From contig OY970378.1 of NCBI GenBank assembly GCA_963718875.1, positions 132,396 through 196,395 of the forward strand: a stretch of 64,000 bases of DNA, written 5' to 3'. The notes under the pieces were generated by a model that was not told where the DNA came from, ran no database searches, and worked only from the letters and a program-made list of their open reading frames with translations. How positions within the stretch are numbered: position 1 is the first letter of the stretch; each line of letters opens with the position of its first letter. Source of the stretch: Candidatus Parcubacteria bacterium. GTDB taxonomy: Bacteria; Patescibacteriota; Saccharimonadia; UBA4664; JBIOIQ01. Positions 3,883-57,403 of the stretch are shown piece after piece. A program made the translations under genes and the position numbers.

Positions 3883-6496
3883 CTAACTTTGATAGTAACA
3901 ATTTGGCCTCGACTTGGCTATCACGAGTTTCTTGAACTACGCTGGCGGGGGCGGAAGAAACGTAACGCTCGTTGGCCAGGCGGGCGTCTAAACTATCTAG
4001 GTAAGCCTGCTTATCTGCCCTCATTTTTGACAACCTGGCTTTTCGGGCACTAATCAACGCATCGTCGGCTTGAATCCATGCTGGAGCGCTACTCCCGAGG
4101 TACAGACCACTCCCCTGCTCCACTAGTTTGATCTCTGTTACCCTTGCAAGATGTTTAATTAAATCTGCGTATTGAACCAGTTTTGGCTCAGTTGTGAGGA
4201 TGGTGGGCCTATCTAGCTTTTCTTCCGTTGCAATGGCTCTGATTTGGAGGGTTGTTTCTTGAATACGGTTAAAATCTTCAACTAAGCTTATATTAGCCGA
4301 ATTGTTAGAATCCGATTCCGGCCAAGGGCTAACAATCAGATCTGCTTTTTGCCACGGCATATTTTGCCAAATGGCCTCTGTTACGAAAGGCGCGGTGGGA
4401 TGAAGCAGTTTTAAAACTGTCTCTAACCCGTAAACTAAGAGGTCGTGATTAGGTGAAATCTTGGATGCCTCAACATACCAGTCGGCAAAATCGTCCCAAA
4501 GCAGAGCGTAAACCATCTGGCCGGCTTCGGAAAAGCGGTAGCTATCGATTGCTTTGGTAACATTCTGGACTGCTTGGTCGAGTTGGTATTTGATCCAGTG
4601 GTCGGCTGGGGCGTTGAGCTGTGGTTCGGCAGGTGTGTAATCGGCTGGCAGTTTGGCCAAGATGAACCTGGCAACATTCCATAGTTTGTTACAAAAATTG
4701 CGGTAGCCTTCAATTTTTTCTTTTCCGAGTGAGCCATTATTCCCGGGTGTAATCCCAATGGTTAGTGCTAAACGAAGAGCATCGGTGCCGTATGTGGCGG
4801 TGTATTCCAGAGGATTAATAACGTTTCCTTTAGATTTACTCATTTTTTTACCTTGTGCATCGTTGACCATGCCCCATAGGTAGACGGTTTTAAAGGGAGG
4901 CAGTTTAAAGCGATAATAACTAAACATCACCATCCGGCTCACCCATAAAAATATAATGTCGCGAGCAGTAGCCATTACGCTGGTGGGGTAAAACTGCTCA
5001 AAATCACCGGTGGCCATGAGGGTAGCGTAAGGCCATTGACCGCTAGAAAACCAAGTATCGAAGGTATCGGTTTCGGTCTCGTAATTATTTTTGCCATAGT
5101 AATCAATGGCTTCATCCTCATTGAAGGCAATGATGTAGGGTTTTTTGGTGGTATCAGAAGAGGCATTGTAATAGATGGGGATAGTTATTCCAAACCAGTT
5201 TTGGCGGCTAATGTTCCAATCGCGTAGGTTTTCCATCCAATCCAAGTAGACTTTTTCGTAACGCTTGGGGACTATTTTGATCTCACCATCCTTAACGGCC
5301 TTGATGGCTGGCTGTTTGAGTTCGGCCACCTTAAGCCACCACTGCTCAGTAACTAGTGGCTCTATTAGGGTGCCACAGCGGTCGTGAAAGGAAACGCTAT
5401 GCTTGTAATCCATTTCAACATGGTCAATTAACCCCCTTTCCTCAAGGTCATGGGCAACTTGCTCTCTAGCTTCGGCTACAGGCATGCCGGCGTATTTACC
5501 TGTTAGGTTGGTTAGCAGTCCGTCTGTCCCAATGGCTTGTTTGACCTCCAGGTCGTGACGTAACCCCATTTCCCAGTCGTTGGGGTCATGTGCAGGAGTA
5601 ACCTTAACTACACCTGTACCAAAGGCTGGGTCAACAAAGTCGTCTGCAATAACCTTGAGCTTGAATTTTCCAAGCAGGCCTTCGGCTTCAATCTCTTGGC
5701 CAATATACTGCGTGTAGCGCTCGTCCTTGGGGTTTACAGCAATGGCGGTATCACCAAATTTTGTTTCAGGCCGGACAGTAGCAAGTATAAACGGGCCGTA
5801 TTTGATGTAATATAACGGGTCAATTTGCTCACGATACTTGATTTCTAGGTCGCTAAAGCCGGAGCGGCAATGAGGGCACCAGTTAACTATGCGATTGCCG
5901 CGGTAAATTAAGCCATCATCGTGCATTTGCTTGAAGGTTTCATAGACGGTACGGACGATGTCGTCGTCCAAGGTGAACTTAAAACGGCTCCAATCGACGC
6001 TAAAGCCCAGGCTGCGGAGTTGAGCTGTTACATTGGCCATGTTCTTTTTTGTAAAAGCTAAGGCACTTTGATAAAACTGCTCACGACCGAGGTCAAATCG
6101 ACTTTTACCCTCTTTGGCCAGCTCGCGCTCGTAGACCACTTGAGTTTCGATACCAGCGTGGTCAGCTCCAGGGAGCCACAAGGTTGGATCCCCTTTCATG
6201 CGGTGGTATCTAGCCATAATGTCCTCGACCACATACATAACGTGGCCAGTGTGCAGGTCGCCGTTGGCATTAGGCGGTGGCATGATTACACTAAACGGCT
6301 CTCGATCAGGTATTGAGTTGTGAGTTGTGAGTTGTGAGTCATTTGTGCTTATCTCTCGACTCGCTTGAACTGAGCCTGTCGAATGGTCGACTCTTGACTC
6401 TTGACTCGAGGTGGGCTTGAAGGCGCCAGAATCTTCCCACATTTTATAAATGTCGGCCTCGTATTTGGCCGGTTCGTAACTTTTTGGTAACTCCAT
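3845..6496 (-). CDS. valS: valine--tRNA ligase (ValRS)
   Basis: 883 aa. HIGH motif (PPPNANGDLHTGH), KMSKS motif (KMSKSKGN), class I aaRS editing and anticodon-binding regions, C-terminal coiled coil. The N-terminus carries an extra ~30-aa low-complexity insert encoded by a tandem-heptamer palindromic segment (6300-6420). Confidence 0.92.
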   Translation of the reverse strand: MELPKSYEPAKYEADIYKMWEDSGAFKPTSSQESRVDHSTGSVQASREISTNDSQLTTHNSIPDREPFSVIMPPPNANGDLHTGHVMYVVEDIMARYHRMKGDPTLWLPGADHAGIETQVVYERELAKEGKSRFDLGREQFYQSALAFTKKNMANVTAQLRSLGFSVDWSRFKFTLDDDIVRTVYETFKQMHDDGLIYRGNRIVNWCPHCRSGFSDLEIKYREQIDPLYYIKYGPFILATVRPETKFGDTAIAVNPKDERYTQYIGQEIEAEGLLGKFKLKVIADDFVDPAFGTGVVKVTPAHDPNDWEMGLRHDLEVKQAIGTDGLLTNLTGKYAGMPVAEAREQVAHDLEERGLIDHVEMDYKHSVSFHDRCGTLIEPLVTEQWWLKVAELKQPAIKAVKDGEIKIVPKRYEKVYLDWMENLRDWNISRQNWFGITIPIYYNASSDTTKKPYIIAFNEDEAIDYYGKNNYETETDTFDTWFSSGQWPYATLMATGDFEQFYPTSVMATARDIIFLWVSRMVMFSYYRFKLPPFKTVYLWGMVNDAQGKKMSKSKGNVINPLEYTATYGTDALRLALTIGITPGNNGSLGKEKIEGYRNFCNKLWNVARFILAKLPADYTPAEPQLNAPADHWIKYQLDQAVQNVTKAIDSYRFSEAGQMVYALLWDDFADWYVEASKISPNHDLLVYGLETVLKLLHPTAPFVTEAIWQNMPWQKADLIVSPWPESDSNNSANISLVEDFNRIQETTLQIRAIATEEKLDRPTILTTEPKLVQYADLIKHLARVTEIKLVEQGSGLYLGSSAPAWIQADDALISARKARLSKMRADKQAYLDSLDARLANERYVSSAPASVVQETRDSQVEAKLLLSKLDEQIQAISQAQK

Positions 6497-23290: not shown

Positions 23291-23338
23291 TTATTGCCTG
23301 AGCCTGTCGAAGGCCCTTCGACTATGCTCAGGGAGTAA
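23291..23338. repeat. family-2 palindromic element (ATTGCCTGAGC-CTGTCGAAGGCC-CTTCGAC-TATG-CTCAGG)
   Basis: Full palindrome. Half-copies at 36884-36910, 37027-37054, 53104-53131, 55067-55145. Confidence 0.55.
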
Positions 23339-30017: not shown

Positions 30018-30408
30018 TTTTACCTTTCTGGAAGTAACTCTTCAAGTTGTGAAGGGACATACGCGGGGACGGCCCGCGTGGCCGCGAGTGGCTTTTTAGG
30101 GCCTCTCGTCGCCGGGGTGAATTCAAGTTCCCCGGCGATAAGAGGTGATAAGTGCAGGTCATCAACGCCTCCGATTTTTACGGATTGGCGGATTTTCGAG
30201 TATAAAAAAACCAGGGTCATTGTTGGGCTTTAGGCTAAGCACCAGACTCTGGGGAAACGTTTTCGATACCGATAGCTATTTAACTGATGAAACCATTATA
30301 GGACACCATTTTTGATTTGTCAATAGGTAAATCTCGTAATTATAGTTGACTAAGTGAGCCGGAATATATATAGTGTGGCGGCTGTTTCCAACTATCAGGA
30401 GGACAGAA

Positions 30409-36699: not shown

Positions 36700-36790
36700 T
36701 CTATACTATTTATGCTTAAATGTCAATATAATGTAGGTAAAATGTAATATCTACAGATAGATATTTGTCAAAATGAGAATTGACAAATAC
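36700..36790 (-). promoter_or_regulatory. AT-rich promoter region of the cassette array (TTGACA boxes on minus strand)
   Basis: Reverse complement contains TTGACAAATATCTATCTGTAGATATTACAT and TTGACATTTAAGCATAAATAGTATAGAC. It is the only AT-rich stretch in the array. Confidence 0.35.
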
Positions 36791-36928
36791 AATTTAGCCA
36801 AGTAATCTATGGTTAGCCTCTCTTTCGTCGAACTATAGGAGGCACGGCGCTTTTATCGTTCGAGGTAATCCGAGAGACTCACTGAGGCCTTCGACTACGT
36901 TCAGGCAATGAGCCAGAGAATTTGGTTA

Positions 36929-36986: not shown

Positions 36987-37064
36987 ATGAGGGTTTGTTG
37001 TTCAAAGAGGGAGGACGAAGACTAACCGGGCCTTCGACTCTGCTCAGGCAATAAGGGAGAAAGA

Positions 37065-37844
37065 ATGACAGAAGAACAGCTTCAACAACTAGGATTATCA
37101 CCTACACAAGCTAAGGCGTACCTTTTACTAGTGCTGACGGGTAAGCTGACGCCGGCGGATTTGATGGCTAAGACGGGGGATAGCCGAACCAATGCTTACA
37201 TGGTGCTGGACAGATTAGTTGAGCTGGGGCTGGCGATTAAAGATGAGGTGGGCAAAAAGCTGATTTATCGCTCAAACAGCCCCGTTGGACTGGCCAAGAT
37301 TGCGGAGCGTCAAAGGGAGAAGGCCACCCAAACGGAAGGCAAGATTCGCGATGCCATGCCTGAGCTGGTTAAGTTTTACCATTCTCACCGAACTCAACCC
37401 GGAGTGCGGTTTTTACAAGGGAAAGAGGGGCTACAACAGGTTTATAAAGACCATCTTAAGACCGGTGGAGACGAGGTAATTTTTAGAACTAAGGCGGATA
37501 ACGAGTATTATGGTCAAGGGTTACTGACGTACATGGAGGAGCGGGCAGCAAAGGGAATTAAGACCGATATGATTTCACCCTGGCAGAGGGATATGGTTAA
37601 GTATGCTCCGGTGGAAAACGTGCGGTTAAAACGTGATGTGACTTTTGTACCGCCTGAGGCCTACGATGTGCCTGTGGAGATTGCGGTATATGGTACTAGG
37701 GTTGCGATTACCTCCTTTGGTGAGGAGGCGATTGCAACGATTATTGACAGCCCCCAGGTGGCGGATGCGGTAAGACAAGTATTTGCCATGGCTAAGGCAG
37801 GGGCGGATAAGCTTTGGGTTGAGGCCGGCGGCTTGCCCGAGTAA
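37065..37844 (+). CDS. TrmB-family transcriptional regulator
   Basis: N-terminal winged HTH (LGLSPTQAKAYLLLVLTGKLTPADLMAKTGDSRTNAYMVLDRLVELGL) plus C-terminal TrmB-like domain. Paralog at 53755. Confidence 0.7.
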   Translation: MTEEQLQQLGLSPTQAKAYLLLVLTGKLTPADLMAKTGDSRTNAYMVLDRLVELGLAIKDEVGKKLIYRSNSPVGLAKIAERQREKATQTEGKIRDAMPELVKFYHSHRTQPGVRFLQGKEGLQQVYKDHLKTGGDEVIFRTKADNEYYGQGLLTYMEERAAKGIKTDMISPWQRDMVKYAPVENVRLKRDVTFVPPEAYDVPVEIAVYGTRVAITSFGEEAIATIIDSPQVADAVRQVFAMAKAGADKLWVEAGGLPE

Positions 37845-52331: not shown

Positions 52332-53114
52332 ATGATAGTAGTTGGCCTCACCGGCGGAATGGGGCAGGGTAAAAGCACAGTTGGGCAGATGCTGCGCGAG
52401 CTTGCGAAAGTGGATTATAAGGCTGACCTAGAGTCATCGTATCCCATTACGACGGTGGCCAATCAGTGGCTATCGACGTGGCCGCAGTCGTTGGTGCTTG
52501 CTGCCAATGAGACGCAGATACAGCTGGCAAACCGGCTAATTGAAAGCCTACCACCCATTATCGAGGAAGTTACTGGTAAATCTACAACAGCCAAAGTTTT
52601 ACAAATTAATGAAGCTGATTCTGCGAATGTGACTTTGCATAAGCGTTTACTTGATTACATAGGTCAATGGCTAGAAGAATCCGAGGGTGAACGTCATGAC
52701 CGGCTACCGCTGCCGATTGTGCCACAAAATAAGGCTCTACATAGGGCGCTGTTTCAGTGGTTGGGTGGGATGGCGATTGAACTGATTTATCGCCCAATTT
52801 GGAGCGACTTGCTTGATAAACGGATAAAACAACTAGCTGAGAGGGATTATAAGTTGGTGACGGTTGGTGGAATCCGCTATGACCATGATGCGGACATGAT
52901 TCAGGCTAACAAGGGGGTTATTTTAAAAGTTATGCGGCCGCATTCTGCTCATAGTAGTGATGTGACGGAGACCTCCATGAGTGAAGTTGAGGCTGATATT
53001 GTGCTGCATAATGATGGGACGCTGGCGCAGTTAGAATGGGTTGTGCGGCAGCTATGGCAGGATTTGCAAGTGGGGAAACCACAGGCAGAGTATCGGGCTA
53101 GTCTTATTGCCTGA
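52332..53114 (+). CDS. P-loop kinase, dephospho-CoA kinase-like
   Basis: VGLTGGMGQGKSTV resembles the CoaE GLTGGIGSGKST motif. Confidence 0.55.
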   Translation: MIVVGLTGGMGQGKSTVGQMLRELAKVDYKADLESSYPITTVANQWLSTWPQSLVLAANETQIQLANRLIESLPPIIEEVTGKSTTAKVLQINEADSANVTLHKRLLDYIGQWLEESEGERHDRLPLPIVPQNKALHRALFQWLGGMAIELIYRPIWSDLLDKRIKQLAERDYKLVTVGGIRYDHDADMIQANKGVILKVMRPHSAHSSDVTETSMSEVEADIVLHNDGTLAQLEWVVRQLWQDLQVGKPQAEYRASLIA

Positions 53115-53149
53115 GCGGAGTCGAAGGCTCCTTTTATTAACATCTGGAT

Positions 53150-53177: not shown

Positions 53178-53754
53178 AGGGGAATAACTTCATTCAAAAA
53201 GAAAGCGGGCCAGCTCTGGGGAGGGGATTCCCAAGAGCTGGCCCGTGGGGGCCGGATATGTGGGGGGCTAGCCAGTGACGGTGGTGATGACACTGATGCC
53301 GAGCGTGAACCCTGCGCCGAGCGCACCATCCTCGATGAGGTCACGACGAGTCAGCGGCTTGGGTTCCCTCGTGGGGAAGATGACGTCGAAGATGACGACA
53401 ATCAGGGTGCAGAGCGTCCAGCGGAAGCCATGACGACGAAGAAACTGGGACATTGGAACTCACTTTCCCGACCGGTTGGTCGTGGATAGAGGCCATGTGA
53501 AGGCCGATTTGGGTGGGCTTGAGATGGCTGAGGCCGAAACCCGCCGTTGTGATGCTTTTGACCCCAGGAGGGAGTCTACTTGTGTCGAGGGTGCTTGCGT
53601 CTTTGAGACGTGGCACGTTCTCGAAACATGAATCGGATTTTAACATAGATTAATATAAATGTCAACTTTTTGTACGCATGATAGCCAGGGTGGTGAATCG
53701 TGTCATAAGACGAATTCTGTTGAAAAAAACTGACAACAATGCTATGTTGAAATT

Positions 53755-54513
53755 ATGCAAATAACAGAGTTGGCCGCTAAGTTACAATCGTTGGGACTAT
53801 CTGACAAAGAAGCCAAGGTATATGTGGCGTCTTTATTTTTGGGGCCTGCAGCTGTACAGAAGATTGCCGAACAGGCTGGGGTTAATCGCGCGACGGCCTA
53901 TGTGATTCTTGATCAATTAGGTGAGATTGGGCTGGTGAGCCAGAGTACGGAAGATAAAAAAACCGTGTTCGTACCGGAAGGGCCTGAGGCGCTGGATCGG
54001 TGGATTGATAGTCAAGAAGAGCTAGTTAAGGGTCGCCGGAACGAGCTTAAGTCGTTGTTACCTGAGCTCAAACAATCTGCCAGAGCTGATACCGAAGACG
54101 CTCCAGTGGTACGATTTTATAAAGGCGCCGAGGGGAGTAGAGCGGTTACCGATTATGCCCGAAAAAAGGCTAAGCCCGGGACAGAAATATACAGCTTGAC
54201 GAATGTAGATGAGATTGAAAGGAAGTTACCTGGGCATCTGGGATCAAACCCCTCTCACAGAGTTAAAAAGAAAATATCTAGCAAAGTTATTTACTCATAC
54301 GTGGGCGATGTGCCAAGTGACCCAAAGTTATTACGCCAGACCTATAAAATAGGTCAACCAGTTATTGCTGACATTGATCTTTATGACGATCGGGCTTCTT
54401 TGGAGACATATGGTGAAAAAAATTCTGTAAGTATTTTGATTGAAAGTAAGGAGATTGTAGGTGCACTTCGACAGCTTTTTGAACTTGCCTGGAAGAACCA
54501 ACTCAAAAAATAA
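53755..54513 (+). CDS. TrmB-family transcriptional regulator (paralog)
   Basis: HTH LGLSDKEAKVYVASLFLGPAAVQKIAEQAGVNRATAYVILDQLGEIGL. Same architecture as 37065-37844. Confidence 0.7.
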   Translation: MQITELAAKLQSLGLSDKEAKVYVASLFLGPAAVQKIAEQAGVNRATAYVILDQLGEIGLVSQSTEDKKTVFVPEGPEALDRWIDSQEELVKGRRNELKSLLPELKQSARADTEDAPVVRFYKGAEGSRAVTDYARKKAKPGTEIYSLTNVDEIERKLPGHLGSNPSHRVKKKISSKVIYSYVGDVPSDPKLLRQTYKIGQPVIADIDLYDDRASLETYGEKNSVSILIESKEIVGALRQLFELAWKNQLKK

Positions 54514-54525
54514 CGTCAGCTTTGG

Positions 54526-54554
54526 TTGACAATAATTTATAAACGTGCTATACT
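54526..54554 (+). promoter_or_regulatory. strong sigma-70 promoter (TTGACA-17-TATACT)
   Basis: Near-consensus elements with optimal spacing. The transcript starts in GC-rich DNA with no RBS-associated ORF. Confidence 0.6.
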
Positions 54555-54560
54555 GCTTAA

Positions 54561-55056
54561 GCTACGTTTGAAGGGTTAAGCCTGTGTTTTACCCTGATTA
54601 CTCCTTCGGACCCTCCAAGGGAGTGCGCAAGCTCGTAGTAGTTTTCCCGAGAAAGGGGAAATCGATGAACCTCCTCATGGGAGGCGGCGGCCTCTAGCCG
54701 TCGTCCAATGCGAGACACCTCCGGCCATCCAGGCTGAGAACCTCGCATCGCAACACCTGGATCTGCCGGTCGGGCATTGGCCCGGTATCGACACGATCGA
54801 GCGATGACCGCGAGTATGGCGGTCAAAAAAAGCCAGATCTGGCGGTGGGCATCAACCCCCACATACCGTCGAGATCGAACAGCACCCGCGTTCAACGCGG
54901 TCGCAGTTGCAAAAGTAATACTTCCAAACATCGGCTCCTTTGGGGCCACACCGTTTGCTGGAGGGCATGGAACCGGGAATCGCCTGGTAACCACCCTCCA
55001 GCAAACGGAACACATTTTATGAAGCTGTATTTGCACGGCAATGGCCGTGTTTTTTA
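54561..55056 (+). ncRNA. candidate ~500-nt structured ncRNA (promoter to terminator)
   Basis: GC-rich and hairpin-dense. Ends at CACGGCAATGGCCGTG plus TTTTTT (55034-55056). The overlapping ORFs are antisense or RBS-less. Confidence 0.35.
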
Positions 55057-55401
55057 TGCATTATTCCCTGAGCCTGAATGACGGCAGTCAGGCTTGTCGA
55101 AAAAAAAGGGGGGGTTAATGGCCTTCGACTAGGCTCAGGCAGTAGCTAAGTTTACTTTTGCCGACATTAATTTTAGTTACTTTAACAGATACGAAACAAA
55201 GAATTTTAATAAAAACTGTAAAAAAGTATTGACATAAATATATTATGTATGCTAGGCTTGTGAAGTTGTGAAAATAACGTCAAATGTTATGGACACAATA
55301 GTACATTTACTTTTTGTTCTTGCTTACTATTGCATTAACTTTCCGTCAATTGAGCTAAACATTTAACTTAGTTGTCGGAAAGCTATGGGAGGGGGTGAGC
55401 A

Positions 55402-55560
55402 ATGGACGAGTTCGAATACATTCTCTTGCTTGCGCTGTTGATGGGCTATTCGCCCTTCGACATCTGCATGTTCTTCTTTGGGCTGGGCTGCGAGAGCGGC
55501 CACGCCTGTGCGAGGGAGCAGCAGGAGCGCGAGTGGGAGCAGGCCCGGATCGGCTACTAG
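55402..55560 (+). CDS. small membrane protein (52 aa), candidate
   Basis: GGAGGGGGTGAGCA-ATG RBS. Hydrophobic core plus Cys-containing tail. Immediately upstream of the tRNA-like element. Confidence 0.35.
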   Translation: MDEFEYILLLALLMGYSPFDICMFFFGLGCESGHACAREQQEREWEQARIGY

Positions 55561-55590: not shown

Positions 55591-55665
55591 AGGGCTGATT
55601 GGTTTCGCTTGGAATGGTCGCATTTGCGAACTGACCAAGCCCGGGTTCGATTCCCGGCAGCTCTA
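55591..55665 (+). ncRNA. tRNA-like element resembling the tmRNA tRNA-like domain (Ala identity features), no tag ORF
   Basis: 7-bp acceptor stem AGGGCTG/CAGCTCT with a G3:U70 wobble and A73 discriminator. Canonical T-arm CCGGG-TTCGATT-CCCGG. No D-stem. 5' AGGGCUGAUU and 3' GGGUUCGAUUCCCGGCAGCUC mimic the tmRNA ends, but only a short hairpin sits between them. Confidence 0.45.
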
Positions 55666-56037
55666 CTTATGGCGAAAAACAGCAGGAAAACGTTACGAGT
55701 TGGCCGAGCCAGCTCATCCTCCCAGAGGTTCGTCTGGGGCGTAATCTTCGGCCCAGACGCCGAACGATACGTCGAGATCACGTCTGATCTGCTTTTTCCT
55801 CCTACGGAGGCAGAAGCACGATGGAGGCTTGGCCTCCCTGACGGCACTCCGGTGTTGGTCGGCTGCCCCTAAGGCAGATCTGCGGCGTTCGGCTACGCCA
55901 AGAACCTTGAAGGAGCATAGCTCCAAGTTGCGCTCTGGGCTAGAGCGAAAACAAAAGCTGGCCAATAGGTGTGGCCATCAAGCTCGGTTCAGAGCAACCT
56001 GTAACCCATTCAAGCGTTAATTTTTTCGCGCTTGAAT

Positions 56038-56124
56038 GGGAGCTGTCATCCACTAAGTAGTGGATCTGATGAGTCCTTCGATTCGTCCTGCGGGTGCGGG
56101 ACTCGCTCAGGACGAAACGGCTGC
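56038..56124 (+). ncRNA. hammerhead ribozyme, type III (copy 1)
   Basis: Stem III 5' strand GGAGCUGUC^A. Stem I hairpin TCCACT-AAGT-AGTGGA. Core CUGAUGA. Stem II GUCC...GGAC with an internal hairpin. Then GAAAC and stem III 3' strand GGCUGC. Predicted cleavage after C56047. Confidence 0.8.
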
Positions 56125-56897: not shown

Positions 56898-56984
56898 GAG
56901 GCAGTTCCTCCGATGTGTGTCGGAGCTGATGAGTCCTTCGATTCTTCCCATCTAAGTGGGATCGCTCAGGACGAAAACTGCGGG
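56898..56984 (+). ncRNA. hammerhead ribozyme, type III (copy 2)
   Basis: GAGGCAGUUC^ then stem I CTCCGA-TGTGTG-TCGGAG, CUGAUGAGUCC...GGACGAAA, stem III ACUGC. Stem I and the stem II insert differ from copy 1 but remain hairpins (compensatory changes). About 50 nt upstream of the RBS of the 57035 lipoprotein gene. Confidence 0.8.
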
Positions 56985-57034: not shown

Positions 57035-57403
57035 ATGCAAACCAAAAGCAATACCCACCGGAGCCGCACGGTCATCGCGGCAGTCACATTTGCTCTGTTC
57101 GTCGCAGTCTCGACGTCGGCTTGTGCCAGCTCGCTGTGGAGCGTAACGCCTCTCCCCAGGATGTACGCCTGCAGCTACACGAGCCAGCCGACGCAGGGCC
57201 AGACACTGTCGGCCGTTGCCGTCGCGACCTACAACCGTCAAGGACAAGGGGTTGACGACTGGAAGGCACTGATTCGTGAGCGCAGCCACTACATTGGGGC
57301 TGACACAGCTGTTCTGGATCCCAACCTGACTCTCGTCATCCCGCGCATCTGTGAGGAGGGGGAGCAGTCGGGTTCGGTCAGCAGCGACGTTCCGGCGTCT
57401 TAG
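57035..57403 (+). CDS. lipoprotein (hypothetical, weak LysM-like C-terminus)
   Basis: AAAGGAGG RBS. Signal plus lipobox STSAC. 122 aa. Confidence 0.55.
   Translation: MQTKSNTHRSRTVIAAVTFALFVAVSTSACASSLWSVTPLPRMYACSYTSQPTQGQTLSAVAVATYNRQGQGVDDWKALIRERSHYIGADTAVLDPNLTLVIPRICEEGEQSGSVSSDVPAS

What the first reader, a model, noticed from the sequence alone, without database searches (positions are those of the whole stretch)
54526..55056. Second promoter-to-terminator ~500-nt GC-rich non-coding transcript
TTGACA-17-TATACT is the best promoter match in the window. It is followed by about 495 nt with dense hairpins (CTCCTCATGGGAGGCGGCGGCC and others). It ends with CACGGCAATGGCCGTG-TTTTTT. There is no RBS-linked ORF. 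It sits immediately upstream of the tRNA-like element and the hammerhead ribozymes, so the whole 54.5-57.0 kb stretch may be an RNA-centric element.
Basis: inference. Interest (0 to 1): 0.6.

Follow-up and report, generated by a model that had tools for sequence, protein, structure and literature searches.

The report
TrmB-linked structured RNA with micro-ORF
This is a real, separately transcribed, heavily folded RNA gene of about 500 bases next to a TrmB-type regulator in ultra-small Saccharimonadia bacteria; it matches no known RNA family and carries a conserved 10-codon glycine-rich mini-gene, so it is more likely a new regulator-controlled RNA device than a purely non-coding transcript.

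Summary
The promoter (TTGACA-17-TATACT with an extended -10 TG), the ~496-nt GC-rich hairpin-dense body and the terminator are all present at 54526-55056. The unit is not chance. A TrmB-like gene is followed by the same promoter, a GC-rich RNA of 400-550 nt and a terminator in 15 related Saccharimonadia loci, three of them fetched afterwards as a test. In the 11 loci tested on both strands, the sense strand folds far better than shuffles.

No Rfam family, phage, plasmid or conserved protein matches. Against the closest relative (TrmB 91% identical, synonymous sites ~saturated), the 5' and 3' thirds are 74% identical with conserved folding. The middle is unalignable.

The promoter is not the best in the window. 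There is an RBS-linked ORF: a conserved micro-ORF at 54665-54697 (MNLLMGGGGL), whose stop codon sits in a hairpin loop in six lineages.

The promoter overlaps a fixed-spacing palindrome (TGTCA-N8-TGACA). The next promoter and the TrmB promoter carry it too, so this looks like a local TrmB regulon.

Best reading: a new TrmB-controlled, translation-gated structured RNA that works like a dual-function RNA. Its function is unknown. It is independent of the hammerhead block.

The parts
53755..54513 (+). TrmB-like wHTH regulator gene (252 aa); the invariant neighbour of the RNA
   Evidence: Pfam TrmB 1.9e-13. Orthologues at 55-91% identity are always followed by the RNA.
54514..54531 (.). Operator-like palindrome CGTCA-N8-TGACA overlapping the -35 box (putative TrmB binding site; weak hairpin alternative)
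   Evidence: The spacing is always 8 nt in 12 of 12 loci, plus 3 out-of-sample loci. The same motif sits at P2 (55217-55234) and in the TrmB promoter (53718-53735).
54526..54554 (+). Sigma-70 type promoter P1: TTGACA, 17 nt, TGn, TATACT
   Evidence: Conserved position, 17-nt spacing and TGn in relatives.
54561..55056 (+). Inferred transcript (RNA#1), ~496 nt, GC 0.56. The 5' end is inferred from the -10 box and the 3' end from the terminator.
   Evidence: Fold z-score -6.0 to -6.8.
54561..54752 (+). Conserved 5' domain: closing stem, two hairpins, then the SD hairpin, the micro-ORF and the stop-codon hairpin
   Evidence: 74% identical to L097 while 4-fold synonymous sites are 41% identical. 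Consensus-fold column-shuffle z = -4.65, SCI 0.72.
54654..54658 (+). Shine-Dalgarno-like AGGGG, sequestered in hairpin 54641-54662
   Evidence: An SD-like motif 4-8 nt before the start codon in all six W-type lineages.
54665..54697 (+). Micro-ORF MNLLMGGGGL*
   Evidence: Translation. Conserved as MSMTSGGGGL, MSFISGGGA, MCDFNGGGA, MICNFGGGGA and MGGGL in L097, L090, L091, L092 and L102. Shuffle probability 0.02-0.05 per lineage. It is the only such ORF in the window.
54683..54705 (+). Hairpin whose 5' arm is the Gly-Gly-Gly-Leu codons and whose loop and 3' arm boundary holds the stop codon UAG (54695-54697)
   Evidence: Same arrangement in six lineages.
54753..54936 (+). Hypervariable but still hairpin-rich central region
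   Evidence: 47% identity (unalignable) to L097. It includes the UGACCGCG...GCGGUCA hairpin at 54807-54827, which recurs in L097, L090 and L091.
54954..55017 (+). Long 3' hairpin (15-bp outer stem plus inner hairpin)
   Evidence: The outer stem is conserved with L097. Equivalent long hairpins lie at the 3' end in L090, L091 (where they double as the terminator) and L092. 3' domain z = -8.57, SCI 0.80.
55033..55056 (+). Intrinsic terminator GCACGGCAATGGCCGTGT followed by T6
   Evidence: Identical in L097.

Best explanation
54526-55056 is a free-standing gene for a ~0.5-kb, GC-rich, multi-hairpin RNA belonging to a previously undescribed Saccharimonadia family. That family is physically and probably regulatorily coupled to the upstream TrmB-like transcription factor.

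Shown:
- The unit (promoter, structured body, terminator) is conserved in position.
- The 5' and 3' domains are under purifying selection.
- The body is far more stable than shuffled sequence.
- A 9-10-codon (5-codon in L102), SD-linked, glycine-run micro-ORF is conserved, with its stop codon in a hairpin loop.

Inferred:
- The TrmB-like protein binds the fixed-spacing palindrome TGTCA-N8-TGACA that overlaps the -35 box. It thereby co-controls this RNA, the next promoter (P2, 55229) and its own gene.
- Once the RNA is made, the masked SD and start site are opened under some condition. A ribosome reads the Gly run and terminates inside the hairpin, melting it and re-setting the fold or stability of the downstream RNA.

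On this reading the transcript works like a dual-function, translation-gated regulatory RNA. The closest analogy is the 514-nt RNAIII of Staphylococcus with its embedded hld ORF. The Gly run would make it sensitive to Gly-tRNA charging or to ribosome availability. The downstream target or partner is unknown.
For: Synteny and regulatory signals:
- 12 of 12 loci with TrmB at 55% identity or more have TTGAC[AG]-17-TAnnnT 4-28 nt after the TrmB stop. 11 of 12 have TGn, and all have the N8 palindrome.
- Three loci fetched afterwards (L098/99, L100, L102/103) show the same features, with GC 0.60-0.61 against 0.48-0.52 for the locus and z from -3.5 to -6.8.

Structure:
- Sense-strand fold z runs from -3.0 to -8.4 in 11 of 11 loci and is never weaker than the antisense strand.
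- The hairpin loops are rich in UUCG and GNRA tetraloops.

Selection (against L097):
- TrmB is 91% identical in amino acids, while 4-fold sites are only 41% identical.
- The RNA's 5' part (1-195) and 3' part (385-505) are 74% identical.
- Consensus folding beats column shuffles: z = -8.55 overall, -4.65 for the 5' part and -8.57 for the 3' part.
- Helix changes in the conserved parts are mostly pair-preserving.
- A W+L097 nhmmer profile finds the L090 RNA at E = 1e-3 in the right place and strand.

Micro-ORF:
- Six lineages keep an SD, an in-frame start, a GGN run, Ala or Leu, and a stop.
- Variation in the Gly, Ala and stop codons is at third positions or synonymous (listing).
- Shuffle probability is 0.02-0.05 per lineage.
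- The stop codon is in a hairpin loop in all six.
- It is unique in the 64-kb window.
- A similar anti-SD/SD hairpin plus a 3-8-codon Gly-rich ORF lies behind the same operator-promoter in distant Patescibacteria. L020 MGGH differs from L094 MGGH only by synonymous changes.

Regulon:
- The palindrome occurs at P1, at P2 and 36-50 nt upstream of TrmB starts.
- In the window the full operator-promoter pattern occurs only at P1, P2 and one other site, 20369, with a weaker left half-site.

Background and negatives:
- Gly-tRNA charging drops quickly under stress and causes A-site pauses at Gly codons in E. coli (PMC6377232).
- There is no Rfam match even at E<=10.
Against: - No expression, 5'/3'-end or ribosome-profiling data exist. 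The TSS is inferred.
- A covariance model built from the window's 5' domain alone found none of the syntenic homologues, even with filters off. The detailed secondary structure is therefore not conserved beyond close relatives.
- Real covariation evidence rests on one alignable pair. Across all W MFE pairs, 45 are broken against 13 double-compensatory, and most of both lie in the unalignable middle.
- The micro-ORF is clear in the W-type clade but weak or different in L098 (18 aa), L100 (MRVRGF), L095 and L096. Very short ORFs behind an SD can arise by chance.
- The conserved GGNGGNGG could be an RNA-level motif rather than Gly codons.
- TrmB binding to the palindrome is inferred from position and conservation only.
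- No target for a trans-acting function was found.
Confidence: 0.5

Rival explanations
1. It is a purely structural, protein-binding or scaffold non-coding RNA. The G-rich motif and its hairpin are an RNA or protein recognition site, and the apparent micro-ORF is incidental.
For: - Strong folding z-scores everywhere.
- Stable tetraloops.
- Conserved 5' and 3' domains with a variable middle, as in many RNP RNAs.
- GGNGGNGG is also readable as an RNA motif.
- The micro-ORF is inconsistent outside the W-type clade.
Against: - An in-frame start, an SD at the proper spacing and an in-frame stop are retained in six lineages whose upstream sequence is otherwise unalignable (P about 0.02-0.05 each).
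- Variation is confined to third codon positions and synonymous stop and Ala codons.
- MGGH is encoded with all-synonymous differences in L094 and the distant L020.
Confidence: 0.2
2. It is a ribosome-mediated attenuator or leader. Stalling in the Gly run when Gly-tRNA is scarce decides between termination at 55033-55055 and read-through into the P2 unit (small ORF, tmRNA-like element, hammerhead RNAs).
For: - A tandem run of one amino acid's codons in a short SD-linked leader ORF followed by hairpins is the hallmark of trp/his-type attenuation (established knowledge).
- The stop codon lies in a hairpin.
- A terminator is present at the end.
- Gly-tRNA charging is stress-sensitive (PMC6377232).
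Against: - The terminator lies ~335 nt after the ORF stop, not within the usual few tens of nucleotides.
- The 175-nt AT-rich spacer and an independent strong promoter P2 follow the terminator.
- No glycine-related genes lie downstream.
- Relatives with 3-5-codon ORFs lacking a Gly run (MQTS, MGPT, MDGI) cannot sense Gly.
- No mutually exclusive anti-terminator pairing was identified.
Confidence: 0.12
3. The transcript is chiefly an mRNA for a bioactive micro-peptide (C-terminal GGG[G][A/L]; elsewhere GGH-type peptides). The long structured flanks only stabilise it or gate its translation.
For: - The peptide end is conserved.
- Distant Patescibacteria have a well-conserved 24-26-aa ORF, M[YF]WG..WLQK.RTEHCGGEGG, in the equivalent transcript.
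Against: - The N-terminal halves are unrelated (MNLLM, MSFIS, MCDFN, MICNF).
- Length collapses to 3-5 residues in sister lineages.
- No Pfam or NCBIfam family matches the distant 24-26-aa micro-ORF peptides; the window's own 10-aa peptide is too short for these scans.
- 5' and 3' RNA domains well outside the ORF are under purifying selection.
Confidence: 0.08
4. It is a non-functional or selfish sequence: a decaying gene, a mobile-element remnant, part of the hammerhead element, or the coding piece of a split tmRNA.
For: - The middle is unalignable even between close relatives.
- It neighbours hammerheads and a tmRNA-like tRNA-like domain.
- The ~10-codon ORF with its stop in a hairpin loop superficially recalls the tmRNA tag frame (own knowledge).
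Against: - The position, promoter and terminator are conserved in 15 loci from streamlined ~1-Mb genomes.
- The 5' and 3' domains are conserved above saturated synonymous sites.
- There are no repeats or paralogues in the window and no phage or plasmid match.
- It is present where there is no hammerhead or tRNA-like domain, and in L003 alongside a complete one-piece tmRNA.
- The ORF has its own SD and AUG, which a tmRNA tag frame lacks.
- The Rfam tmRNA and permuted-tmRNA models do not hit it.
Confidence: 0.05

Closest known systems
Dual-function regulatory RNAs, especially Staphylococcus RNAIII (514 nt, embedded hld ORF, controlled by the adjacent agr regulator) and SgrS/SgrT next to SgrR
   Same: - Size of about 0.5 kb with many hairpins.
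- Own promoter and terminator.
- The gene lies beside the transcription factor presumed to control it.
- A very small ORF is embedded in a mostly non-coding structured RNA.
- The 5' and 3' parts are conserved and the middle is variable.
- C-rich/anti-SD-like (CCUCC) segments are present.
   Different: - No sequence or Rfam relationship.
- The ORF is only 5-10 codons and glycine-rich.
- No target mRNAs are known.
- The regulator is of TrmB type, not a two-component response regulator.
- The host is a Patescibacteria lineage.
Ribosome-mediated attenuation leaders (trpL, hisL, pheL and similar)
   Same: A short SD-linked leader ORF with a run of identical codons, followed by hairpins and a terminator.
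   Different: - The terminator is ~335 nt away.
- No co-transcribed biosynthetic operon follows.
- An independent promoter follows the terminator.
- Sister lineages lack the codon run.
Large 'ornate' bacterial ncRNAs found as long GC-rich intergenic regions (GOLLD, ROOL, OLE, raiA)
   Same: - Hundreds of nucleotides long and GC-rich relative to the genome.
- Dense in hairpins.
- Own transcription unit, unknown function, and tRNA-like genes nearby.
- It belongs to the class of object that GC-rich-IGR searches recover (PMC8723152, PMC6429828).
   Different: - No match to their Rfam models.
- Primary sequence and helices are much less conserved.
- It contains a translated-looking micro-ORF.
- It is tied to a transcription-factor gene rather than to phage.
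tmRNA mRNA-like domain
   Same: A ~10-codon frame whose stop codon lies in a hairpin loop. It lies within 0.6 kb of a tmRNA-like tRNA-like domain.
   Different: - It has its own SD and AUG.
- It has no tRNA-like domain, no pseudoknot pattern and no Rfam hit.
- The peptide ends in GGGGL or GGGA, not a hydrophobic degron.
- It coexists with a full tmRNA in L003.
Type I toxin mRNAs and RNA thermometers (SD masked by an anti-SD hairpin)
   Same: The SD (and in relatives the SD plus AUG) is sequestered by an upstream CCUCC-type strand.
   Different: - The peptide is not hydrophobic or toxin-like.
- No antisense RNA gene is present.
- The RNA is far longer than a thermometer.

Membership tests
Any Rfam 15 family (RNase P, 6S, SRP, tmRNA, T-box, riboswitches, GOLLD/ROOL/OLE/raiA, ribozymes) | Covariance-model match at or near the family's gathering score | tested here: not met
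   No hit overlapping 54526-55056 at gathering score or at E<=10 with permissive filters. None was found in the homologous RNAs of relatives.
tmRNA (one-piece or two-piece coding piece) | tRNA-like domain halves, pseudoknots, and a tag frame without SD or AUG that ends in a hydrophobic degron | tested here: not met
   The Rfam tmRNA and tmRNA_permuted models hit only 55591-55745, not this RNA. The ORF has an SD and an AUG. L003 has this RNA plus a complete tmRNA.
Ribosome-mediated transcription attenuator | Leader ORF with tandem regulatory codons | tested here: met
   GGA GGC GGC GGC in a 10-codon SD-linked ORF. It is conserved in the W-type clade only.
Ribosome-mediated transcription attenuator | Terminator and mutually exclusive anti-terminator immediately after the leader ORF, followed by co-transcribed structural genes | tested here: not met
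   The terminator lies ~335 nt after the stop. It is followed by an AT-rich spacer and an independent promoter. No anti-terminator alternative was identified.
Dual-function (coding plus regulatory) sRNA, RNAIII-like | Discrete structured transcript that carries a translated small ORF | tested here: inconclusive
   The transcript is inferred from a conserved promoter and terminator. ORF conservation supports translation. No expression or ribosome data are available.
Dual-function (coding plus regulatory) sRNA, RNAIII-like | Base-pairing or protein-titrating regulatory activity on other genes | not testable with these tools
   No target was identified, and only a 64-kb window of the genome is available.
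Protein-coding gene (either strand) | Conserved reading frame detectable by translated comparison | tested here: not met
   tblastx all-against-all of 11 homologous regions gives nothing consistent. The antisense 159-aa ORF has no Pfam hit and no counterpart ORF was called in L090 or L092.
Dispersed repeat or mobile element (REP/MITE-like), phage or plasmid DNA | Further copies in the genome, or similarity to phage or plasmid records | tested here: not met
   No second copy in the window. No blastn match in 50,697 phage or 72,556 plasmid records.
TrmB-regulated promoter (operator occupancy) | Palindromic site of fixed spacing at the promoter, shared with the regulator's own promoter | tested here: met
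   TGTCA-N8-TGACA with invariant 8-nt spacing at P1 in all loci, at P2, and upstream of TrmB starts. Actual binding is not testable here.

The most novel reading that the evidence does not exclude
The window shows one instance of a module conserved across Patescibacteria. A TrmB-like factor autoregulates and drives, from TGTyA-N8-TGACA promoters, a fast-evolving GC-rich RNA. The only deeply conserved feature of that RNA is a masked-SD micro-ORF of 3-10, mostly glycine, codons that ends in a hairpin. That would make it a ribosome- or Gly-tRNA-sensing RNA switch acting as a central stress or translation-status regulator in bacteria that have very few regulators. In some lineages it would be co-regulated with tmRNA and hammerhead-processed RNAs.
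Probability: 0.3. Interest if true: 0.8.

Novelty: new variant of a known kind. Interest (0 to 1): 0.62.

Why it matters
Patescibacteria (CPR) make up a large share of bacterial diversity, have ~1-Mb genomes and very few transcription factors, and almost nothing is known about their RNA-based regulation.

A 0.5-kb RNA gene kept next to one of those few regulators, under purifying selection in a streamlined genome, is unlikely to be idle. It would add a new large structured RNA class from a lineage missing from the RNA-family catalogues.

It also gives a concrete, testable regulon: the operator sequence, two target promoters and autoregulation. It offers an unusually small conserved ORF whose geometry (masked SD, Gly run, stop in a hairpin loop) suggests a translation-coupled switch.

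Saccharimonadia can now be cultured with hosts and genetically manipulated (own knowledge), so the predictions are directly testable.

Tried and rejected
- **Rfam.** Searches at gathering score and at E<=10 on the window and 30 related loci found nothing for this RNA.
- **blastn and tblastx.** The RNA against the window and against all loci gave no paralogue and no conserved frame. Only L090-L091 share 120 nt at the 3' end.
- **MAFFT.** Alignments of 4 RNAs were unreliable. MAFFT Q-INS-i was unavailable.
- **Single-sequence covariance model.** The model of the 5' domain (R1) found no true homologue with default filters or with filters off. I did not build further models.
- **Repeated loop motifs.** A search for CsrA-type GGA or similar motifs found none.
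- **RNase P, 6S, SRP and T-box.** These were considered from size and context and rejected on the Rfam results and the absence of their signature sequences.
- **Phage or plasmid origin.** No match.
- **Small peptides.** Pfam and NCBIfam gave nothing.
- **Literature.** Searches on Saccharibacteria/Patescibacteria ncRNA, TrmB and large ornate RNAs found no description of this element.
- **RNA#2 of relatives.** It has no counterpart in the window.
- **Closest relatives without DNA.** The DNA of P0002 (87% TrmB identity) and of the Logan contig identical to the window could not be fetched.
Full report
**1. The observation**

The sequence at 54526-55056 is as described.
- The -35 TTGACA is at 54526-54531. 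A 17-nt spacer with an extended -10 TG follows, then TATACT at 54549-54554.
- A 7-bp GC-rich hairpin at 55033-50 is followed by six T.
- Between them lie about 496 nt with GC 0.56, against 0.49 for the window.
- The sense strand folds to -212.4 kcal/mol, z = -6.8 against dinucleotide-preserving shuffles. The antisense strand gives z = -4.4.
- Perfect TTGACA-N16-18-TANNNT sites are ten-fold over-represented in the window (13 found, 1.3 expected), so this organism uses canonical sigma-70 promoters.

- The promoter is not the best in the window. 30295-30323(-) is a perfect 12/12 match.
- There is an RBS-linked ORF (section 5).

**2. Organism and neighbourhood**

The flanking genes (DnaG, RpoD, two kinases, a TrmB-family regulator, PadR, PolA) and the best genome matches place the window in Candidatus Saccharimonadia (Patescibacteria/CPR).

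The RNA lies immediately 3' of the TrmB-like gene (53755-54513). Downstream, after an AT-rich spacer, comes a second strong promoter (P2, 55229) and then:
- a conserved 52-aa ORF;
- an ~80-nt tmRNA-like tRNA-like domain;
- two type III hammerheads.

**3. Known families**

Rfam 15 gives nothing for this RNA at gathering thresholds or at E<=10, in the window or in the homologous regions of relatives.

There is no second copy in the window. There is no similarity to phage or plasmid records. Translated comparison of eleven homologous regions finds no conserved frame on either strand. The 159-aa antisense ORF has no Pfam match and no ORF was called at the equivalent position in L090 or L092. Literature searches found no description of the element.

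**4. Relatives**

I used the TrmB-like protein as an anchor, via genome and metagenome scans and exact-protein look-ups. This collected 12 Saccharimonadia loci with TrmB 55-91% identical.

- All twelve have, 4-28 nt after the TrmB stop, a TTGAC[AG]-17-TAnnnT promoter. Eleven have TGn.
- Every locus with enough downstream sequence then has a 400-550-nt segment richer in G+C than its locus in all but L092 (0.49-0.62 against 0.42-0.53) and an intrinsic terminator. L012 ends within the RNA.
- In all eleven full-length cases the sense strand folds better than shuffles (z from -3.0 to -8.4) and at least as well as the antisense strand.
- Hairpin loops are rich in UUCG and GNRA tetraloops, and no repeated loop motif is present.
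- Three further lineages were fetched afterwards as an out-of-sample test (L098/99, L100, L102/103). They show the same promoter, a GC 0.60-0.61 body, a terminator and z from -3.5 to -6.8.
- A locus at 47% TrmB identity (L013) lacks the RNA.

Flanking genes differ between loci (GroEL, PGI, Nramp, HhH-GPD and others). Only the TrmB-RNA pair is constant. The hammerhead and tRNA-like block is absent from about half of these loci. The RNA therefore belongs with TrmB, not with the ribozymes.

**5. How it evolves**

Primary sequence is lost quickly. Among loci with TrmB at 83% identity or less, only L090 and L091 share 120 nt at the 3' end.

One close relative could be aligned: L097, with TrmB 91% identical in amino acids.
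- Four-fold synonymous sites in TrmB are only 41% identical, which is near saturation.
- The RNA's first ~195 nt and last ~120 nt are 74% identical.
- The central ~185 nt (54753-54936) is 47% identical, i.e. unalignable.
- The 5' and 3' domains are therefore under purifying selection.
- The consensus fold of the pair is much better than column-shuffled alignments: z = -8.55 overall, -4.65 for the 5' part and -8.57 for the 3' part, with SCI 0.72 and 0.80.
- In the conserved parts most helix changes preserve pairing (G-U to G-C or A-U). One clean double change (U-A to C-G) closes the UGACCGCG hairpin.
- A profile built from the pair finds the L090 RNA at E = 1e-3.

On the negative side, a covariance model built from the window's 5' domain alone recovered none of the syntenic homologues, even without filters. 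The exact helices are not conserved across the clade, and covariation support is limited to one pair.

**6. The micro-ORF**

The one motif shared by the window and its nearer relatives is GG(A/U)GGCGGCG. It turns out to be the end of a tiny reading frame.

| Locus | Peptide |
|---|---|
| Window, 54665-54697 | MNLLMGGGGL* |
| L097 | MSMTSGGGGL* |
| L090 | MSFISGGGA* |
| L091 | MCDFNGGGA* |
| L092 | MICNFGGGGA* |
| L102/103 (out-of-sample, TrmB 60%) | MGGGL* |

- Each frame has an SD-like motif 4-8 nt before its start codon, although the upstream sequence is otherwise unrelated. With the upstream 45 nt shuffled, this happens in 2-5% of trials per lineage.
- Differences within the Gly, Ala and stop codons are third-position or synonymous (GGA/GGU/GGC, GCC/GCG, UAG/UAA).
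- In all six lineages the last codons form the 5' arm of a hairpin and the stop codon lies in its loop.
- The SD, and often the AUG, is itself buried in a hairpin.
- No other SD-linked ORF of 14 codons or fewer with a Gly run exists anywhere in the 64-kb window.

Sister lineages have a CCUCC/GGAGG (anti-SD/SD) hairpin followed after 4-5 nt by AUG and only 3-5 codons: MGGH, MGGAS, MGPT, MQTS, MDGI.

The same arrangement lies behind the same kind of promoter next to TrmB orthologues of only 35-40% identity in other Patescibacteria:
- MGGH in L020, differing from L094's MGGH only by synonymous changes;
- MNGG, MGGDG, MMIGGFGG and MGG;
- a conserved 24-26-aa frame ending in HCGGEGG.

I regard translation of the frame as likely, but not shown. 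Outside the W-type clade the evidence is weaker: L098 has 18 aa, L100 has MRVRGF, and L095 and L096 are unclear.

**7. Regulation**

The -35 box is the right half of a palindrome. It reads CGTCA-N8-TGACA in the window (54514-54531) and TGTCA-N8-TGACA in most relatives, always with 8-nt spacing.

- P2 carries TGTAA-N8-TGACA (55217-55234) in the window and its relatives.
- The TrmB gene's own promoter carries TGTTG-N8-TGACA (53718-53735). A matching site lies 36-50 nt upstream of the TrmB start in at least twelve loci.
- In the window the full operator-plus-promoter pattern occurs only at P1, at P2 and at one other site, 20369, whose left half-site (GGTTA) departs further from TGTCA.
- A fixed spacing and a 5-bp half-site suit a dimeric helix-turn-helix protein better than a terminator hairpin.

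I infer, without a binding test, that the TrmB-like protein autoregulates and co-controls this RNA and the P2 unit.

**8. Most likely mechanism**

Shown:
- a conserved, separately transcribable, highly structured RNA gene coupled to TrmB;
- purifying selection on its ends;
- a conserved micro-ORF geometry.

Inferred:
- TrmB gates transcription.
- The masked SD gates initiation.
- A ribosome reading the Gly run and terminating in the hairpin remodels the RNA.

The transcript would thus act like a dual-function, translation-gated regulatory RNA. RNAIII (514 nt, embedded hld, next to its regulator) is the closest working analogy. Sensitivity to Gly-tRNA charging is plausible, because that charging falls rapidly under stress in E. 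coli (PMC6377232). The downstream partner is unknown.

The rivals are set out with their tests in the rival-explanations section:
- a purely structural RNP RNA with an incidental frame;
- a long-range attenuator feeding into P2;
- a micro-peptide mRNA;
- a selfish or tmRNA-related remnant.

**9. Verdict**

The feature is real and non-random. It is not a member of any catalogued RNA family, and it is only loosely connected to the hammerhead block.

It is a new family that behaves like a known kind (a regulator-linked, dual-function structured RNA). There is a reasonable chance that it represents a module conserved across Patescibacteria.

Noticed in passing
window 55591-55668 (+); L090 2244-2325, L091 4668-4748, L092 4250-4329; L003 9444-9789: An ~80-nt tmRNA-like tRNA-like domain, with a G3:U70 acceptor stem and a T-arm, in which the whole mRNA-like part is replaced by a short hairpin. 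It is conserved in relatives (Rfam tmRNA 44.8, 56.7, 36.5 and 68.8 bits). L003 has a full 346-nt tmRNA (109.7 bits) at the same position after the same small ORF.
   Followed up: partly
window 55402-55560 (+); L003 9090-9282; L091 ~4475-4640; L092 4064-4234: A conserved 52-63-aa ORF (motif SP.EICM.FF..G.ESGHACA) lies directly upstream of the tmRNA or tmRNA-like element. It has no Pfam or NCBIfam family.
   Followed up: partly
window 56040-56123 and ~56900-56982 (+): Two type III hammerheads in the same orientation lie about 865 nt apart. Their Rfam scores are below the gathering score because of a long stem II. They flank a stretch conserved at 70-78% in relatives, with equal tblastx signal in all six frames, so it is non-coding. 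The excised piece could be a circular RNA. Relatives have 1-3 such hammerheads.
   Followed up: partly
window 55217-55258 (+): The second promoter, P2, carries the same N8 palindrome (TGTAA-N8-TGACA) as the RNA's promoter. It is conserved in all relatives, where it drives either the small-ORF/tmRNA-like/hammerhead unit or a different ~350-nt RNA.
   Followed up: partly
L001 7350-7746, L002 7372-7682, L011 5374-5753, L094 5368-5701, L095 5336-5647, L096 5436-5773: A second non-coding RNA ('RNA#2', ~300-400 nt, motif CCAGCGCUAnCUAUCUAAAA..GAGCGGnUUGAGA) follows the first in about half of the relatives. It has no Rfam hit and no counterpart in the window. In L096 the P2 transcript begins with a hammerhead that has a CUGAAGA core.
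   Followed up: partly
L026 ~4815-5364 (-), L058 ~4790-5242 (-), L062 (-), L020, L061, L063, L071, L032, L053, L054, L056: Distant Patescibacteria TrmB loci carry TGTyA-N8-TGACA promoters that drive GC-rich transcripts with an anti-SD/SD hairpin and tiny ORFs: MGGH, MNGG, MGGDG, MMIGGFGG, MGG, or M[YF]WG..WLQK.RTEHCGGEGG.
   Followed up: partly
window 36766-36785 and 37065-37844 (+): A second TrmB-family gene (N-terminus MTEEQLQQLGLSPTQAKA...) lies behind a perfect palindrome, TTGTCAA-N6-TTGACAA, that overlaps divergent promoters. The half-site spacing is different (N10), suggesting a paralogous regulator with its own operator.
   Followed up: no
window 23315-23337, 36886-36907, 37029-37053, 53105-53128 (-), 55122-55144: A dispersed ~25-nt repeat, GGCCTTCGACTnnGCTCAGGCAnTA, occurs five times. 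One copy sits between this RNA's terminator and P2 and is conserved in L097. Two sit in the leader of the TrmB paralogue.
   Followed up: no
window 57035-57403 (+): A 122-aa ORF with a signal-peptide-like N-terminus follows the second hammerhead. It is present in L092 (6341-6670) but absent from L091 and L097, so this end of the locus is variable.
   Followed up: no
window 30295-30323 (-): A perfect consensus promoter, TTGACA-17-TATAAT, which is the best sigma-70 match in the window.
   Followed up: no
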